NCBI GenBank assembly: GCA_026395955.1
Contig: JAPLXR010000006.1
Location: 87,259 to 151,258, forward strand
Reading direction: 5' to 3'
Origin: Candidatus Nomurabacteria bacterium
GTDB lineage: Bacteria; Patescibacteriota; Minisyncoccia; Phycocordibacterales; UBA9973
Length of the DNA: 64,000 bases
Part shown: piece after piece, positions 25,395 through 49,588 of the stretch
Layout: the number at the start of each line of letters is the position of its first letter
Position numbering within the stretch: the stretch's first letter is position 1
Program-made: the position numbers and the translations under genes
Notes under the pieces: generated by a model
The model's database searches: none
What the model was told of the DNA's origin: nothing
Seen by the model: the letters and a program-made list of their open reading frames with translations, nothing else

Positions 25395-25540
25395 ATATAT
25401 AATTAAAAAAGTCCGCTAAAAAGCGGATATTAAAATTTAGGCGTCCTTGGGTATTCCCTCGGGTGTTAACCTAAAAGTGCTTTTAATATCTAGATACTAC
25501 TATATAAGAGGAGAAAATGCAACCCATAAATTCAAACTCG

Positions 25541-25587
25541 CCCCACCCCTAACCCCTCCCCAAAATTTGAAGATTTTAGAGAGGGGG
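25541..25587. repeat. GC-rich hairpin repeat, copy A (CCCCACCCC-TAA-CCCCTCCCC-aaaatttgaagatttta-GAGAGGGGG)
   Basis: Related to copies at 26544-26721 and 37620-37659 (inverted orientation); GC-rich island in an AT-rich intergenic region. Confidence 0.7.
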
Positions 25588-25689
25588 AAATATTGATATT
25601 ATTAACTTAATGTGGTAGTTTTTAGTTAGAAAAACTATAGTTCGGTTGAATTCTAATAAGTATTAATTCACCTTTTAAATATTGAACAA

Positions 25690-26151
25690 ATGAGAAAAAA
25701 CTTGTCCTACAAAAAATTACCACAATGGATTGTGGATATTTTAGAAATTGTAAAAAAATTAGAAAAAATAAAAGCTGAAGAGCTTATGATTATGTATCAT
25801 GAAATGGATCCTGAAATTTATAAATTGATTAAAGATGAAATTTCAAAATTTTCAGAAGAAGAAATAAAATTTTATGTTAAAACAATTAAAGAATTCAATT
25901 TTCGTGATAAAAAGTATTACAAAGATGTAAAAATAGAAAGTAAAAGTGACTGGTATGATTACATGGATGAAAGATGCAGATTTGTTAATCGTTTGCTTAC
26001 TGTTATCAATGTTACTTTTAATTCAAACAGGAAATCAAGTGAGCTTGAACGACAAGTTAGTCCTCCTTCAGGAGTTTATGAAAAAAAAGATATTCACAAT
26101 AAAACAGATATCAAGCCTTCTGTTAAGGCATTTGGTACTCTTTTTGAGTAA
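25690..26151 (+). CDS. hypothetical protein (153 aa) in a repeat-flanked cassette
   Basis: ORF only; K/E-rich. Confidence 0.35.
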   Translation: MRKNLSYKKLPQWIVDILEIVKKLEKIKAEELMIMYHEMDPEIYKLIKDEISKFSEEEIKFYVKTIKEFNFRDKKYYKDVKIESKSDWYDYMDERCRFVNRLLTVINVTFNSNRKSSELERQVSPPSGVYEKKDIHNKTDIKPSVKAFGTLFE

Positions 26152-26155
26152 ATTC

Positions 26156-26521
26156 TTAATTATTGATCACCACAACAGATTGTATATTTGTTGTGGTGAT
26201 TTTTATTTTATCTAAAACTTTTTTTAAATCCGTCTCTATTTCAGAATTCCAAAATCTCAAGACTTTTATATTTTTAGAATTTAAATATTCTGTTCGCATT
26301 TTATCGTATTCTTTGTTTTCTTTATGAATTTCACCATCAAGCTCAATTGCGAGTTTTATTTTTGGTACATAAAAATCTATGATGAATCTATCTATTGGGT
26401 GCTGACGGCGGAACTTTATACCGAGTTTGTTATTTCTAATTTCCTCCCAAAGTATTTTCTCTGCTTTGGTTTCTTCTTTGCGCAAATAACGAGCTTTTGT
26501 CATTTCTTGTAGTTTTGACAT
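26156..26521 (-). CDS. DUF559 endonuclease-domain protein (Vsr/PD-(D/E)xK-like fold)
   Basis: ARxLRxxxTxAExxLWxxIR...GxKFRRQHPIxRFIxDFYxPxxKLAIELDGxxH...VLRFWNSE pattern typical of PF04480. Confidence 0.7.
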   Translation of the reverse strand: MSKLQEMTKARYLRKEETKAEKILWEEIRNNKLGIKFRRQHPIDRFIIDFYVPKIKLAIELDGEIHKENKEYDKMRTEYLNSKNIKVLRFWNSEIETDLKKVLDKIKITTTNIQSVVVINN

Positions 26522-26543
26522 ATTTTAATTTTAGCATTTTGTT

Positions 26544-26721
26544 CCCCCTCTCTAAAATCTTATTTTGGAGAGGGGGCTAGGGGGTGAGGGGAATTCCTAG
26601 AATTAATTCAACCCGCCTCATCCCGACCTAAAGGCTACCCTTCTCCAAAACTTGAAGGTTTTAGAGAAGGGAGAAATGCTTTTGAATTTTCCCCTCTCTA
26701 TTTTTCTAAAATGGGGAGGGG
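26544..26721. repeat. composite of three or more GC-rich hairpin repeat copies. B: CCCCCTCTC-taaaatcttatttt-GGAGAGGGGG-CTA-GGGGGTGAGGGG (26544-26591). C: CCCTTCTCCAAAAC-ttgaag-GTTTTAGAGAAGGGA (26638-26672). D: CCCCTCTCTA-tttttctaaaa-TGGGGAGGGG (26691-26721).
   Basis: Arms are reverse complements of copy A and near-identical to copy E; the ttgaag loop is shared between A and C. Confidence 0.7.
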
Positions 26722-27389
26722 CGGGTTTGGTATTGTTTATATATTTTGCTATAATTATACTTATGATAATCACATATTTCGGAAAACAATTTTTTAAGAT
26801 TCAGCAAGGGGAGATGACTGTCGCTTTTAACCCAATCAGTAAAGAATCAAAAGTATTCAATGGTGGAAAATTCGGCTCAGATATTGCACTCGTTACTACA
26901 AACCACAAAGACTATAACGGCCTCGGTCAGCTTTCTCATGGAGAGCGTGAACCTTTTGCTGTTACTGGTCCTGGAGACTATGAAGTTCGAGAAGTTTTTA
27001 TAAAAGGTCTGATGTCAGATGCGAATTTAGGTGATAAAAAATACATAAATACTATTTACTCTCTAGGTATTGATAATATAAATATTGCATTTCTCGGGGC
27101 ATTATCTGATGGAGATATTTCAAAAGAAGCTCGTGAAGCCATAAATGAACCAGATGTTCTTTTTATTCCCGTCGGAGGTAATGGTGTTATGGATGCTAAA
27201 ACTTCTGCGAAATTGGCTTCATCTCTCGAGCCGAAACTTATTATCCCTATGGATTATGATAAGGAAAGTTTAAAGCATTTTTTGAAAGAAATGGGTGCTG
27301 AAAATGCTGAAGTAGTAGACAAGCTTACTTTAAAGAGAAAAGATTTAGATGGAAAAGAGGGTGATGTAATAGTATTACAAACAATATAA
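26652..27389 (+). CDS. hypothetical protein, possibly a degenerate MBL-fold hydrolase; the 5' end overlaps the repeat cluster, so the true start is uncertain (in-frame Mets at 26652, 26676, 26763)
   Basis: ORF; the N-terminal 37 codons are translated from repeat DNA. Weak resemblance to beta-lactamase-fold hydrolases (LVTTNHKDYNG, FAVTGPGDYEV). Confidence 0.35.
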   Translation: MKVLEKGEMLLNFPLSIFLKWGGAGLVLFIYFAIIILMIITYFGKQFFKIQQGEMTVAFNPISKESKVFNGGKFGSDIALVTTNHKDYNGLGQLSHGEREPFAVTGPGDYEVREVFIKGLMSDANLGDKKYINTIYSLGIDNINIAFLGALSDGDISKEAREAINEPDVLFIPVGGNGVMDAKTSAKLASSLEPKLIIPMDYDKESLKHFLKEMGAENAEVVDKLTLKRKDLDGKEGDVIVLQTI

Positions 27390-37517: not shown

Positions 37518-37619
37518 TTTTTTTATGAATTAAATTGTTTTTAATTATTTTTTAAAATACATTTCTATACTTATAGTATATCATATGCAACATAAAAAGT
37601 CAAGCCATTTAAACCAAAA

Positions 37620-37670
37620 CCCCCTCTCCTTAATAAGGAGAGGGGGCAAGGGGGTGAGGTGGTTTTTTTA
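37620..37670. repeat. GC-rich hairpin repeat copy E (CCCCCTCTCC-ttaataa-GGAGAGGGGG-CAA-GGGGGTGAGG) followed by a T-run; doubles as a terminator for the minus-strand gene ending at 37668
   Basis: Perfect 10-bp stem; same arm and flank sequence as copy B; A/T runs on both sides. Confidence 0.7.
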
Positions 37671-38411
37671 AGCTTTCTTTAATGCTACAGGTTCTTTTTT
37701 TGTATCACCCATATATAGCTTTCTAGCTAAGAATATTGCTATTAATACTAAGATGATAAGCAATAACCATTGTATGAATGTTGTAGGCATAAATCCTGAA
37801 CCGAAAGCATTTGCTGTGAGACCGTTACAATCTGTGCTATTTATGGCAGAAGCTGTTAAAGCCTTTTTAGCAGTTGTTGTTTTTGCTGGAGTAGCCTTTG
37901 CTGGTGTATTTGTAGTTGCTGGTGGATAATCTCCGACAGTACTAGGGGCTACGGTTGTAGTTGTTTTTGTGATGTTTAAATAAACTCCATTTGAGACATG
38001 TCCAGTGTCTTGATTATATACAGTTACTACATGACTTCCAGATGTGGCTACGTCAGAAGGGTATAGAGCCATACTTAAGTGAGTAGTATTTATATACTTT
38101 GTAGGTCTATTTGATCCGTCTAAACGAGCGACTGATCCTGGATTGAAGTTTGCACCTGTAATATTTATAACTTCATTTGCATTAGTTGAATCTGAAACAC
38201 TGTTCGGTGTTATTGAATAAATAATTGGTGTAGCCACATTATAATAATTATTTGTATTATTGTTGTTATCAACACTTGTAGGATTACCTAGGTAGTAACC
38301 AGGGCCTCCAGCATTAACTTTAGCTGGTGCAAAAGAAAACACTATTAGAGCTAAAACACTCAATAATATCACTGTGTTATATTTAATTGTTTTATTTAAT
38401 ATGTTAGTCAT
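37668..38411 (-). CDS. secreted Thr-rich protein with a C-terminal TM anchor (247 aa)
   Basis: Signal peptide, T/P-rich linker, C-terminal hydrophobic helix plus K-rich tail. Confidence 0.45.
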   Translation of the reverse strand: MTNILNKTIKYNTVILLSVLALIVFSFAPAKVNAGGPGYYLGNPTSVDNNNNTNNYYNVATPIIYSITPNSVSDSTNANEVINITGANFNPGSVARLDGSNRPTKYINTTHLSMALYPSDVATSGSHVVTVYNQDTGHVSNGVYLNITKTTTTVAPSTVGDYPPATTNTPAKATPAKTTTAKKALTASAINSTDCNGLTANAFGSGFMPTTFIQWLLLIILVLIAIFLARKLYMGDTKKEPVALKKA

Positions 38412-38506: not shown

Positions 38507-38591
38507 GCCCGGATGGCGGAATTGGTATACGCGCACGACTTAAAATCGTGTCTCGCAAGGGATGTGGGTTCGACCCCCACTCCGGGCACCA
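38507..38591 (+). tRNA. tRNA-Leu (anticodon TAA), long variable arm, CCA encoded
   Basis: Cloverleaf read by eye: acceptor gcccgga/tccgggc, anticodon loop cttaaaa. Confidence 0.8.
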
Positions 38592-38605
38592 AAACTTAAT
38601 ATAAT

Positions 38606-38678
38606 GCGCCCATAGCTCAGCTGGTAGAGCAGATCCCTCTTAAGGATAAGGTCCAAGGTTCGATCCCTTGTGGGCGCA
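38606..38678 (+). tRNA. tRNA-Lys (anticodon CTT)
   Basis: gcgccca...agctcagctggtagagc...cctCTTaagg...ggttcgatcc...tgggcgc. Confidence 0.8.
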
Positions 38679-38703
38679 CAATAAATATAAAGTATATTTA
38701 GAT

Positions 38704-38760
38704 AACTGCTGGAGTGGCGGAATTGGTACATATAGTTAGTCTTTTGTACTAGTAACAAAG
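38704..38760 (+). repeat. decayed tandem copy (pseudo-tRNA) of the 5' half of tRNA-Leu(TAG): 25-nt exact direct repeat (38704-38728 = 38781-38805), degenerate anticodon arm, no T-arm
   Basis: aactgctggagtggcggaattggta appears twice. The first copy continues into ttagtcttttgtactag, resembling the anticodon arm ctagtcttaggaactag, then ends. Confidence 0.6.
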
Positions 38761-38784
38761 CAACAGTTTAAAAAGTTAAAAACT

Positions 38785-38866
38785 GCTGGAGTGGCGGAAT
38801 TGGTATACGCGCTAGTCTTAGGAACTAGTCCCGCAAGGGTTGAGGGTTCGAGTCCCTCCTCCAGCA
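38785..38866 (+). tRNA. tRNA-Leu (anticodon TAG), long variable arm
   Basis: gctggag acceptor, anticodon loop cttagga, T-arm ggttcgagtcc, 3' ctccagc-a. Confidence 0.8.
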
Positions 38867-38870
38867 CAGT

Positions 38871-38942
38871 GGCCTAGTCGCCAAGTGGTAAGGCAAAGAT
38901 CTGCAAAATCTTTATACGACGGTTCGATTCCGTCCTAGGCCT
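38871..38942 (+). tRNA. tRNA-Cys (anticodon GCA)
   Basis: ggcctag...ctGCAaa...ggttcgattcc...ctaggcc-t. Confidence 0.75.
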
Positions 38943-45782: not shown

Positions 45783-45865
45783 GCGTCGGTGGTAGAGTGG
45801 TCAATTACAACAGACTGTAAATCTGTCGCCTTCGGGCTACGAAGGTTCAAATCCTTCCCGACGCA
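45783..45865 (+). tRNA. tRNA-Tyr (anticodon GTA), long variable arm
   Basis: gcgtcgg...gaCTGTAAatc...extra arm...ggttcaaatcc...ccgacgc-a. Confidence 0.75.
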
Positions 45866-46170
45866 CACTTTAAATACCCCTATTTTCAAGGGGTATTTTT
45901 GTACCCTGTTTAAGGGTTGGAACTTCAGAAAATATATAAATCTGAAACTAATATTTTTAAAATTTAAATTCCGTTCCACAGGAGAGTGCGGGAGGAATGC
46001 GGGGCGGGGGTTTTGGTAAGGGGGCTATAAAGGTAGTATAGTCCCTGACATTGAAGGTGTAGCTGCGAAGTTTGGATGTAACTGACCCATCATACCATTA
46101 AAATCTGACACGAACGTAACATTAAAACCAAAAGTGAATGGCAATTTAAAAACATTAAATTGATTCAAAT

Positions 46171-49151: not shown

Positions 49152-49222
49152 GGGCGATTAGTTTAGTGGTAGAACGAAGGTCTCCAAAACCTTTGGTGGG
49201 GGTTCGATTCCCTCATCGCCCG
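49152..49222 (+). tRNA. tRNA-Trp (anticodon CCA)
   Basis: gggcgat...ctCCAaa...ggttcgattcc...atcgccc-g. rpmG followed by tRNA-Trp is a common conserved arrangement. Confidence 0.75.
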
Positions 49223-49290
49223 CAGTTAGTTTTATATTGAAAAATAAATTTATTTATGATAAAGTCTAATAGTTAGTCAGTTTTGTATTT

Positions 49291-49366
49291 GTCGGCGTAG
49301 CTCAGTTGGTAGAGCATAGCACTCATAAAGCTAAGGTCACAGGTTCAATCCCTGTCGCCGACACCA
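49291..49366 (+). tRNA. tRNA-Met or Ile2 (anticodon CAT), elongator type, CCA encoded
   Basis: gtcggcg...agctcagttggtagagc...ctCATaa...ggttcaatcc...cgccgac-a-cca. No initiator features. Confidence 0.7.
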
Positions 49367-49384
49367 TCCGGCTCGCCGGAAATT

Positions 49385-49477
49385 AGTGTTTTATAAAAGA
49401 ATAGTTTATAGTTTTACATACGCGATCGTAGCTCAACTCAAATTAGAATATAGTGAGCACTCGCCTAGGCGGACGAT
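49385..49477 (+). repeat. decayed tandem copy of the tRNA-Asp leader plus 5' half: 54-nt exact direct repeat (49385-49438 = 49478-49531), followed by a degenerate anticodon-arm-like palindrome; no T-arm
   Basis: agtgttttataaaagaatagtttatagttttacatacgcgatcgtagctcaact appears twice. The 91-aa track ORF over this region is just a translation of the repeat. Confidence 0.65.
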
Positions 49478-49514
49478 AGTGTTTTATAAAAGAATAGTTT
49501 ATAGTTTTACATAC

Positions 49515-49588
49515 GCGATCGTAGCTCAACTGGTTAGAGCACCCGCCTGTCACGCGGGAGGTTGCCGGTTCAAATCCGGTCGATCGCG
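49515..49588 (+). tRNA. tRNA-Asp (anticodon GTC)
   Basis: gcgatcg...agctcaactggttagagc...ctGTCac...ggttcaaatcc...cgatcgc-g. Confidence 0.75.

What the first reader, a model, noticed from the sequence alone, without database searches (positions are those of the whole stretch)
25541..26721. Family of GC-rich palindromic hairpin repeats (CCCCCTCTC-loop-GAGAGGGGG with a GGGGGTGAGG flank) in an AT-rich genome
At least five copies lie in the window, in both orientations (25541-25587, 26544-26591, 26638-26672, 26691-26721, 37620-37659). They share a 9-10 bp G/C stem, a variable AT loop (two copies share a ttgaag loop) and an adjacent GGGGGTGAGG/CCTCACCCC box. They are sharply GC-rich against roughly 30% GC intergenic DNA. 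They could be REP/MITE-like mobile hairpins, protein-binding sites, or small structured RNAs. Copy E is followed by a T-run and probably acts as a bidirectional terminator. A degenerate G-rich relative may sit at 45985-46030.
Basis: seen in the sequence. Interest (0 to 1): 0.65.

Follow-up and report, generated by a model that had tools for sequence, protein, structure and literature searches.

The report
Triplex-forming hairpin repeats flanking DUF559 nuclease
The GC-rich hairpins are copies of a known bacterial repeat whose single DNA strand can fold into a three-stranded helix, and here and in many other bacteria these repeats closely bracket a tiny nuclease gene (DUF559), which may explain how this long-puzzling repeat spreads.

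Summary
Four complete copies (A, B, C, E) and one hairpin-only copy (D) lie in intergenic DNA of a Candidatus Nomurabacteria genome.

The "GGGGGTGAGG flank" is more than a flank. It is the mirror image of the purine arm. Each unit reads pyrimidine arm, loop, purine arm, linker, mirror box. That is the signature of a purine-motif intrastrand DNA triplex.

This is the published TM/PIT/BoxC repeat family (Holder et al. 2015), shown to form a triplex in vitro in E. coli. The window copies are a register-shifted variant that fails the strict E. coli pattern. The motif occurs in many phyla.

I found no report of the following in the searchable literature. Small DUF559 (Vsr-like nuclease) genes are tightly bracketed by inverted pairs of these motifs. 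In 80 metagenome loci chosen only by the protein, 66 have a motif within 200 nt. Only 3 of 124 other spacers in the same contigs do. Homology between loci stops at the outer motif edges.

The window holds one such gene (26156-26521) beside copy B, and its closest relative lacks that block.

The likeliest reading is a repeat-plus-nuclease selfish module, analogous to REP/RAYT. Mobilisation by DUF559 is inferred, not shown. Copy E also fits a minus-strand terminator.

The parts
25541..25587 (-). Copy A, a triplex motif on the minus strand. In plus-strand coordinates: box complement 25541-25549, linker 25550-25552, purine-arm complement 25553-25561, AT stem and TTGAAG loop 25562-25577, pyrimidine-arm complement 25578-25587.
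   Evidence: (9 triads: 7 perfect and 2 T:G*G). An orthologous copy is present in relative L205 and absent in L206.
26544..26591 (+). Copy B, a triplex motif 23 nt upstream of the DUF559 start codon. Y-arm 26544-26553, AT stem and CTT loop, R-arm 26567-26576, linker CTA, box 26580-26589(91).
   Evidence: (10 triads: 9 perfect and 1 wobble). Absent from relative L205.
26612..26672 (-). Copy C, a triplex motif of the CCCTTCTC/GAGAAGGG/GGGATGAG subtype with a 13-nt linker. Together with B it forms a tight inverted pair with the boxes facing inward, like E. coli BoxC pairs.
   Evidence: (9 triads: 8 perfect and 1 wobble).
26691..26730 (+). Copy D, a hairpin-only degenerate member. The arms are CCCCTCTCT/GGGGAGGGG. 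The following CGGGTTTGG does not match the expected box. It occupies the position of an unrelated terminator hairpin in relative L205.
   Evidence: (best score 3.0).
37620..37660 (+). Copy E, a solitary triplex motif with 11 perfect triads (CCCCCTCTCCT / AGGAGAGGGGG / GGGGGTGAGGT).
37619..37647 (-). The hairpin of copy E read on the minus strand. It is followed by TTTGGTTTAA, which is terminator-like. It lies directly downstream of the 247-aa gene (37668-38411, minus strand). A promoter-like site for the next minus-strand gene follows at 37603-37575.
   Evidence: consensus scan only.
26156..26521 (-). Gene for a 121-aa DUF559 (Vsr-like PD-(D/E)XK nuclease fold) protein, the proposed partner of the repeats. 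Its C-terminal tail reads through the terminator hairpin of the neighbouring gene (26165-26201).
   Evidence: Pfam PF04480, E = 1.1e-34. Family profile matches PDB 3HRL at 6.6e-33 and homing endonuclease I-Bth0305I (3R3P) at 4.9e-5. All family-invariant residues are present. Absent from L205 and L206.
25690..26151 (+). 153-aa ORF of unknown function lying between copy A and the DUF559 gene. It is a neighbour and is not shown to belong to the element. Its orthologue sits next to copy A in L205, where DUF559 is absent.
   Evidence: no Pfam family.

Best explanation
**What it is.** The elements are DNA-level repeats of the G/C-rich intrastrand-triplex family, known as TM, PIT elements, or the core of E. 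coli BoxC. When the G-rich strand is single-stranded, the pyrimidine arm pairs with the purine arm. The 3' box then folds back antiparallel onto the purine arm in the major groove, forming C-G*G, T-A*A and T-A*T triads.

**How it most likely works.** The repeats are not genes for RNAs. They are the terminal or cognate structures of a small selfish module of about 0.45-0.6 kb. The only gene of that module encodes a roughly 110-aa DUF559 nuclease. One such gene, with copy B at its 5' end and the B/C pair beside it, lies inside the finding. Copies A and E are solitary copies. Solitary copies greatly outnumber the gene, as REPs outnumber RAYT. Copy D is a decayed hairpin. Copy E additionally fits a rho-independent terminator for the minus-strand gene upstream of it.

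**Shown here**
- The anatomy of the copies.
- Covariation between purine arm and box.
- The tight statistical and positional association with DUF559.
- Module boundaries at the outer motif edges.
- Presence/absence of the block between close relatives.

**Taken from the literature.** Triplex formation by the E. coli sequence in vitro.

**Inferred.** That DUF559 recognises or cuts the folded motif and thereby spreads the module and its solitary copies.
For: **Identity**
- Copies A, B, C and E give 9-11 triads with no true mismatch.
- The same core, CCCTCTCC / GGAGAGGG / GGGTGAGG, is the published TM of E. coli. Circular dichroism (CD) and NMR show a stable triplex there, with melting temperature (Tm) of 70-82 C.
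- My detector recovers the published E. coli coordinates.

**The structure is under selection**
- Among 316 unique copies, changes in the purine arm and in the box co-occur at triad positions 1, 3 and 6. Fisher p = 2e-24, 1e-15 and 3e-12.
- At position 6 both change while the pyrimidine arm stays T.
- 55 different Y/R/box triples obey the triad rule over up to 12 positions.
- Non-Watson-Crick stem positions favour T:G over C:A, 57 to 20.

**DUF559 link**
- In 80 loci chosen by protein only, motif density is 5.2 per kb within 100 nt of the gene. It is about 0.04-0.07 per kb beyond 500 nt.
- 66 of 80 genes have a generic class II motif within 200 nt. Local shuffles give none.
- Only 3 of 124 other spacers in the same contigs have one.
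- 23 of 26 two-sided cases are inverted pairs.
- In viral contigs, 12 of 30 small DUF559 genes have a nearby motif. None of 42 DUF559 domain fragments does.
- In 120 motif-selected loci, the only 2 DUF559 genes are both bracketed by motif pairs.
- E. coli ycjD has a motif remnant over its stop codon and TM#9 168 nt downstream.

**The module is discrete**
- In one subfamily, nucleotide homology stops at the outer motif edges. The module appears in at least 9 different flanking contexts. In one case it is inverted between the same flanking genes.
- DUF559 protein clades track motif subtype and orientation.

**Insertion/deletion**
- L205, at 96% S1 protein identity, lacks DUF559 and copies B, C and D. 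Homology resumes right after D.

**E. coli lineages**
- Lineages with ycjD (A, B1) carry 19-30 motifs. Lineages without it carry 1-13.
Against: - No biochemical activity is known for small DUF559 proteins. Curated libraries give no function.
- I found no target-site duplication and no near-identical copies in different places within one genome. Recent transposition is therefore not demonstrated.
- Module copies differ by 17-35% in nucleotide sequence, so the events are old.
- Holder et al. saw no triplex in vivo by dimethyl sulfate (DMS) footprinting.
- Two opposite arrangements occur, boxes outward and boxes inward. A simple terminal-inverted-repeat model has to accommodate both.
- 14 of 80 DUF559 genes show no motif with my detector.
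- About 98% of motifs have no DUF559 gene nearby.
- In the window the module is incomplete. There is no motif directly after the DUF559 stop codon.
- The E. coli lineage correlation amounts to roughly one phylogenetic contrast.
Confidence: 0.7

Rival explanations
1. Hot-spot or target model. The triplex motifs are autonomous structure-forming repeats that make fragile, recombination-prone spacers. DUF559 genes, like other accessory genes, merely land there. Alternatively DUF559 is a homing endonuclease that inserts into pre-existing inverted motif pairs. In both versions the motifs are targets, not ends of the element.
For: - Holder et al. link TMs to locally variable DNA.
- The S1/Lactamase_B_3 spacer has four different contents in four close relatives.
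- E. coli has tight inverted pairs without any gene.
- The DUF559 profile matches a homing-endonuclease catalytic domain.
- L402 and L406 differ upstream of a motif cluster.
Against: - Other spacers in the same contigs almost never carry motifs (3 of 124). General hot-spot behaviour does not explain 66 of 80.
- The site in L205 that lacks DUF559 has no motif at that position. The motifs therefore came with the block.
- Homology between modules includes the motifs and ends at their outer edges.
- The upstream and downstream motifs differ from each other in a way that is conserved within one DUF559 clade.
Confidence: 0.2
2. Host-function model. DUF559 is a housekeeping repair nuclease that resolves triplex or hairpin structures, and the flanking motifs regulate or insulate its own gene.
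For: - It is related to the Vsr repair nuclease.
- Motifs lie 0-100 nt from the start and stop codons.
- ycjD is conserved within E. coli phylogroups A, B1 and C.
Against: - The gene is patchy between close relatives.
- It occurs in many unrelated genomic contexts, including inside a ribosomal-protein gene region.
- Some copies lack an ordinary start codon or are truncated.
- A self-regulation role does not explain the thousands of solitary motifs.
Confidence: 0.08
3. The repeats are primarily rho-independent transcription terminators.
For: Copy E on the minus strand is a 13-bp GC-rich hairpin followed by TTTGGTTTAA, directly after a gene end.
Against: - Copies A to D are not called as terminators on either strand.
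- B, C and D lie between two divergently transcribed genes.
- PIT elements showed no terminator or promoter activity in E. coli, as cited by Holder et al..
- The conserved mirror box has no role in termination.
Confidence: 0.04
4. They are small structured RNAs, or a REP family moved by a RAYT (Y1) transposase, or G-quadruplex elements.
For: - Stem mismatches are T:G, which would be G-U wobble in RNA.
- Relative L205 carries a Y1_Tnp gene about 5 kb away.
- Copy A has four G4 runs.
Against: - No Rfam hit near threshold.
- Copies occur in both orientations regardless of gene direction.
- Holder et al. cite work that a purine-motif triplex is excluded in RNA.
- No Y1 gene is in the window, and the one in L205 is not flanked by motifs.
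- NMR of the E. coli sequence showed 18 imino signals, inconsistent with a quadruplex.
- A quadruplex does not explain why the A/T positions of arm and box covary.
Confidence: 0.03

Closest known systems
TM_ECO / PIT elements / BoxC repeats (Holder et al. 2015, PMC4666352; Hoyne et al. 2000 and Bachellier et al., as cited there)
   Same: - Same architecture: pyrimidine arm, loop, purine arm, 3-nt linker, mirror purine box.
- Same core sequence: CCCTCTCC / GGAGAGGG / GGGTGAGG.
- Intergenic, found in both orientations, and forming inverted pairs.
- Located in variable DNA.
   Different: - The window copies are shifted in register (C5 at the 5' end, 10-11 triads) and fail the strict E. coli pattern.
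- They carry a 5-bp A/T stem extension and T:G*G wobble triads.
- The host is a 33% GC candidate-phyla-radiation (CPR) bacterium. The published count for this motif covered 262 proteobacterial genomes.
- That paper reported finding no mobility genes near the motifs. Here a DUF559 gene is the consistent neighbour.
REP sequences with their RAYT transposase (REPtrons); comparison rests on my own knowledge of that literature
   Same: - A short structured repeat present in many solitary or clustered copies.
- One or a few copies of a small nuclease gene bracketed by inverted repeats of the same family.
- Repeat subtype co-varies with protein clade.
   Different: - The protein is a Vsr-like PD-(D/E)XK fold rather than an HUH/Y1 transposase.
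- The repeat has a third strand-forming box in addition to a hairpin.
- No activity has been shown.
Homing endonuclease I-Bth0305I (PDB 3R3P) and Vsr
   Same: The DUF559 profile matches the I-Bth0305I catalytic domain at E = 4.9e-5. The families are grouped together in the PD-(D/E)XK survey.
   Different: - Small DUF559 proteins consist of the catalytic-type domain only.
- They are free-standing and not inside introns.
- They are flanked by triplex motifs.
IS200/IS605-type elements and MITEs (my own knowledge)
   Same: The ends or recognition elements are DNA secondary structures that would form in single-stranded DNA. Short gene-less derivatives outnumber the gene-bearing copies.
   Different: - The ends here are in inverted orientation, and two arrangements exist.
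- No target-site duplication or conserved target was found.
- The nuclease family is different.

Membership tests
TM_ECO in the strict sense (Holder et al. 2015) | Matches CCCTCNCCC N3-6 GGGNGAGGG N3 GGGNGAGGG | tested here: not met
   The pattern finds no match on either strand of the window. It does find the published E. coli copies. The window copies share 8 of the 9 core triads but are shifted in register.
Class II (purine-motif) intrastrand triplex motif, ITxF definition | Three consecutive stems of 6-15 nt forming C-G*G, T-A*A or T-A*T triads, with at most one mismatched triad | tested here: met
   - E: 11 of 11 perfect.
- B: 9 perfect and 1 T:G*G.
- C: 8 perfect and 1 T:G*G.
- D fails.

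Class II (purine-motif) intrastrand triplex motif, ITxF definition | Both loops 1-6 nt | tested here: inconclusive
   - Loop 2 is 3 nt in A, B and E, and 13 nt in C.
- Loop 1 is 5 nt in E. In A to C it is 13-16 nt between the triplex stems, because a Watson-Crick-only A/T stem extension lies inside it. The actual hairpin loops are 3-6 nt.

Class II (purine-motif) intrastrand triplex motif | The isolated strand actually forms a triplex (CD, NMR, melting) | not testable with these tools
   Shown only for the E. coli sequence. Here it is supported indirectly by purine-arm/box covariation.
TM/PIT/BoxC repeat family in the broad sense | Multi-copy, intergenic, both orientations, inverted pairs, located in variable regions | tested here: met
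REP/RAYT | A Y1 (HUH) transposase gene flanked by the repeats | tested here: not met
   No Y1 homologue is in the window. The Y1_Tnp gene in relative L205 has no flanking motifs.
MITE | Terminal inverted repeats plus a target-site duplication | tested here: not met
   No direct duplication was seen at the outer edges of 25 bracketed modules. A single motif is about 45 nt and is itself a hairpin.
Rho-independent terminator | GC-rich hairpin immediately followed by a T-run, downstream of a gene on the same strand | tested here: inconclusive
   Met for copy E on the minus strand only. Not met for A to D. No expression data are available.
Any Rfam RNA family | Covariance-model score at or above the gathering threshold | tested here: not met
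   The best hit scores 25.7 bits against a threshold of 75.
DUF559 (PF04480), for the gene at 26156-26521 | Pfam score above the curated cut-off, with the family's invariant residues present | tested here: met
   119.1 bits against a cut-off of 20.6. The invariant D, E-x-D and H positions are conserved in alignment A1.

The most novel reading that the evidence does not exclude
BoxC/PIT/TM triplex repeats are the recognition ends of a previously unrecognised, pan-bacterial class of minimal selfish elements. The single gene of such an element is a roughly 110-aa DUF559 Vsr-like nuclease. The nuclease reads a folded single-stranded DNA triplex-hairpin rather than a plain sequence. The solitary and paired motifs in genomes from E. 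coli to CPR bacteria are its gene-less derivatives. This would give DUF559 a function, and it would give the intrastrand triplex a biological role.
Probability: 0.45. Interest if true: 0.85.

Novelty: new variant of a known kind. Interest (0 to 1): 0.7.

Why it matters
The repeat has been known since the 1990s as BoxC, then PIT, then TM. Its origin, its means of spread and its function are unresolved. The main study states that no mobility genes were ever found near it. A July 2026 review still calls bacterial triplex DNA poorly characterised.

A specific, testable partner protein would turn that open question into an experiment. DUF559 has a homologue with a solved structure (3HRL) and an E. 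coli K-12 representative (ycjD).

Three further points follow:
- It would assign a role to a very widespread domain of unknown function.
- The three-way covariation is comparative evidence that the triplex geometry, and not just the hairpin, is maintained by selection.
- These motifs break assemblies and may seed spurious ORFs.

Tried and rejected
- **Rfam.** Searches at gathering and permissive thresholds over all copies and over the 45985 tract found nothing relevant.
- **RAYT/Y1 partner.** Absent from the window and not associated in L205.
- **Target-site duplication or conserved target.** None seen at module edges beyond a short extension of the inverted repeat.
- **CRISPR-like reading of regularly spaced motifs in viral contig L263.** Rejected, because the 72-nt units have identical "spacers". 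These are tandem duplications.
- **A permutation control using box templates from other hairpin families.** It was uninformative, because many families are register shifts of one another. I replaced it with position-wise contingency tests.
- **Reversed-sequence control for the fuzzy pattern.** Not a clean null, because the motif is itself mirror-like. I replaced it with local shuffles and other-spacer controls.
- **Identical DUF559 protein on many contigs (P0029).** This turned out to be mostly one locus sampled repeatedly, so it is not evidence of recent transposition.
- **RefSeq annotation of BoxC in E. coli K-12.** No such feature is annotated.
- **Per-genome correlation of motif count with ycjD across all 5,426 E. 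coli genomes.** This could not be extracted with the available tools. Only the published counts for 56 strains were used.
Full report
**1. The observation**

- The 22-nt core GAGAGGGGGNNNGGGGGTGAGG occurs twice exactly. None is expected by chance.
- An independent repeat finder links A with C, links B with D, and finds a perfect 20-nt inverted repeat between A and B.
- Each copy folds as single-stranded DNA into a 12-15 bp hairpin.
- All copies lie between genes.
- The genome is a Candidatus Nomurabacteria metagenome-assembled genome (MAG), about 33% GC.

**2. Anatomy**

Read in a common orientation, the copies are A and C on the minus strand and B, D and E on the plus strand. Each unit then reads:
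- a pyrimidine arm (CCCCCTCTCC);
- an A/T stem extension and a loop;
- the complementary purine arm (GGAGAGGGGG);
- a linker, 3 nt in A, B and E and 13 nt in C;
- a box (GGGGGTGAGG).

The box is the purine arm read backwards, with A or T opposite A. Equivalently, it is the pyrimidine arm with C replaced by G. That is the rule for an antiparallel purine-motif triplex, with C-G*G, T-A*A and T-A*T triads.

| Copy | Triads |
|---|---|
| E | 11 perfect |
| B | 9 perfect and 1 T:G*G |
| C | 8 perfect and 1 T:G*G |
| A | 7 perfect and 2 T:G*G |
| D | hairpin only, no matching box |

Random windows of the same length score far lower.

**3. It is a known family**

A full-text search for the box sequence led to Holder et al. 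2015 (PMC4666352). They describe the E. coli motif CCCTCNCCC N3-6 GGGNGAGGG N3 GGGNGAGGG. The same element was earlier called BoxC and then PIT. Their findings:
- CD and NMR show a very stable intrastrand triplex for the isolated strand.
- No triplex was detectable in vivo.
- There was no promoter or terminator activity.
- There are 23 intergenic copies in K-12, including five inverted pairs.
- The motifs are associated with locally variable DNA.
- No mobility genes were found nearby.

The window copies share the core but are shifted in register. They do not match the strict pattern. They meet the general class II definition.

**4. Distribution**

Hits came from Chloroflexota, Cyanobacteria, Planctomycetota, Gemmatimonadota, Acidobacteriota, Bacteroidota, several proteobacterial classes, Bipolaricaulota and a Nomurabacteria genome.

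**5. Evidence that the triplex geometry is selected**

I collected 316 unique copies with a pattern that lets each of the three segments vary independently.
- Changes in the purine arm and in the box coincide at triad positions 1, 3 and 6. Fisher p = 2e-24, 1e-15 and 3e-12.
- At position 6 the arm and the box both change A to G while the pyrimidine arm stays T. At position 1 they co-vary even when the pyrimidine arm does not pair. The arm-box relation is therefore not a by-product of hairpin complementarity.
- Next to DUF559 genes there are 55 different triples that obey the rule. They include C6/G6/G6 and a 12-triad TCCTCTCCCTTT / AAAGGGAGAGGA / AGGTGAGGGATT.
- Stem mismatches favour T:G over C:A by 57 to 20. 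This points to the G-rich strand as the one that folds.

Caveat: subfamilies share descent, so these p-values overstate the number of independent events.

**6. The DUF559 association**

In the window, copy B lies 23 nt upstream of a 121-aa DUF559 gene. Independent data sets agree.
- Among the 120 motif-selected loci, the only two DUF559 genes are each bracketed by an inverted motif pair. In L090 the gaps between the ORF and the motifs are 12 and 15 nt.
- E. coli ycjD has a motif remnant over its stop codon. A duplicated 3' fragment of the gene and TM#9 lie downstream.
- I fetched 80 metagenome loci by the protein alone. Family-specific motif density falls with distance from the gene:

| Distance from the gene | Motifs per kb |
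|---|---|
| under 100 nt | 5.18 |
| 100-200 nt | 1.49 |
| 200-500 nt | 0.25 |
| beyond 500 nt | 0.04-0.07 |

- With a sequence-agnostic class II detector, 66 of 80 genes have a motif within 200 nt. Local shuffles give none.
- Only 3 of 124 other intergenic spacers in the same contigs have one.
- Of 26 loci with motifs on both sides, 23 are inverted pairs. Ten have the boxes outward and 13 have the boxes inward.
- In viral contigs, 12 of 30 small DUF559 genes have nearby motifs. None of 42 DUF559-domain fragments from larger proteins does.

**7. A discrete module**

- In one soil subfamily, nucleotide similarity between loci begins and ends at the outer edges of the two motifs, giving a module of about 490 bp.
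- That module sits in at least nine unrelated flanking contexts.
- In one case it lies in opposite orientation between the same flanking genes.
- DUF559 protein clades track motif subtype and arrangement.
- Within a clade, the upstream and downstream motifs differ from each other consistently. This recalls the type A plus type B pairs of E. coli.

**8. Presence and absence around the window**

The spacer between the S1 gene and the Lactamase_B_3 gene has four states in close relatives.

| Genome | Content of the spacer |
|---|---|
| Window | A, 153-aa ORF, DUF559, B, C, D |
| L205 (96% S1 identity) | A and the ORF only, with an ordinary terminator hairpin where D lies |
| L206 (95%) | An unrelated 324-aa ORF, no motif |
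| Contig of P0123 (93%) | An empty 182-nt spacer |

Homology between the window and L205 resumes immediately after D. The block of DUF559 with B, C and D is therefore an indel. The allele that lacks it has no motif at that position.

In E. coli, ycjD with TM#9 replaces the eefRABCD operon between fabI and sapF in 3346 of 5426 genomes. Published work assigns ycjD to phylogroups A, B1 and C (PMC12817139). Among the published per-strain counts, A and B1 strains carry 19-30 motifs. Strains of lineages without ycjD carry 1-13. This contrast is phylogenetically confounded.

**9. Mechanism**

Shown:
- the geometry of the copies;
- the covariation;
- the association with DUF559;
- the module boundaries;
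- the indel status.

From the literature: the triplex forms in vitro, and the purine motif is said to be excluded in RNA.

Inferred: DUF559 acts on the folded motif and propagates the module, with solitary motifs as gene-less derivatives. DUF559 is a Vsr-like PD-(D/E)XK domain related to PDB 3HRL and to the catalytic domain of a homing endonuclease.

I put about 0.45 on that step. About 0.2 goes to the alternative that the motifs are targets or hot spots rather than ends.

**10. Reading of each copy**

- B is the 5'-side motif of the DUF559 gene.
- B and C form a BoxC-like inward-facing pair.
- D is a decayed hairpin at a terminator position.
- A is an older solitary copy shared with L205.
- E is a solitary copy. 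On the minus strand its hairpin plus TTTGGTTTAA follows the end of a gene and precedes a promoter-like site, so it plausibly serves as that gene's terminator.
- The G-rich tract at 45985-46030 is unrelated.

**11. Limits**

- There is no expression or biochemical data.
- No recent transposition event was found, and no target-site duplication.
- My detectors miss motifs with long linkers, which I saw by eye in L161, L173 and L203.
- The literature check covers only the open-access library. In it, no paper links DUF559 to these repeats.

Noticed in passing
window 45985-46030: A G-rich tract with four G-runs (GGG N8 GGGG N1 GGGGG N9 GGGGG), which is a candidate G-quadruplex. It lies between a tRNA gene (45783-45865) and the 3' end of a minus-strand gene. 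It has no pyrimidine arm and no Rfam match.
   Followed up: partly
window 25395-26765, compared with L205, L206 and the contig of P0123: The spacer between the S1 and Lactamase_B_3 genes is hypervariable. Four genomes at 93-100% S1 identity show four different contents: empty, a 142/153-aa ORF, a 324-aa ORF, or the ORF plus DUF559 and motifs.
   Followed up: yes
window 26156-26210: The DUF559 ORF carries a C-terminal tail (…TTTNIQSVVVINN) that homologues lack. The tail is encoded by the terminator hairpin of the convergent 153-aa gene (26165-26201). The original 3' end of the module, with any downstream motif, therefore appears to have been lost.
   Followed up: partly
window 25690-26151; L205 5270-5698: A 153-aa ORF with no Pfam family. 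Its L205 orthologue gives a weak, sub-threshold MobL relaxase hit (E = 0.004). It travels with copy A but not with DUF559.
   Followed up: partly
L205 514-1188: The closest relative carries a 224-aa Y1_Tnp (IS200/RAYT-like) gene about 5 kb from the S1 gene. The window lacks it, and it is not flanked by triplex motifs.
   Followed up: yes
L263 1730-2830, L281 3096-3276 (IMG/VR contigs): Triplex motifs arranged in head-to-tail arrays with a 72-nt period and identical inter-motif sequence. These are tandem amplification of a motif-containing unit.
   Followed up: partly
L124 2240-2410 (E. coli K-12, between TM#9 and ycjD): A roughly 50-nt duplicate of the 3' end of ycjD lies between the gene and TM#9. 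The ycjD stop codon sits inside a motif-like hairpin (CCCTCGCTCTTTCAGGGAGAGGG). Together these suggest nested or repeated insertion.
   Followed up: partly
L167 compared with L141 and L163: The same DUF559 module lies in opposite orientation between the same two flanking genes. This fits either inversion across the flanking inverted motifs or independent insertion.
   Followed up: partly
L402-L411 (ENA groundwater-type metagenomes): A DUF559 gene surrounded by five or six motifs sits next to rplB at the edge of the ribosomal-protein gene cluster. Many contigs end about 490 nt upstream of the gene, near the motif cluster. L402 and L406 diverge at the outer edge of that cluster.
   Followed up: partly
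P0101 and several DUF559 loci: Some annotated DUF559 proteins begin or end with peptides encoded by the motifs (PSPSLLGEGE…, …VGEGLG). Gene calls therefore run into the repeats.
   Followed up: no
L161, L173, L203 and window copy C: Some motifs carry a second small hairpin inside the linker between the purine arm and the box, giving linkers of 13-50 nt. This recurring variant is missed by detectors that assume short loops.
   Followed up: no
window 38507-38942 and 49152-49588: Two clusters of tRNA genes, with four tRNAs in the first and three in the second.
   Followed up: no
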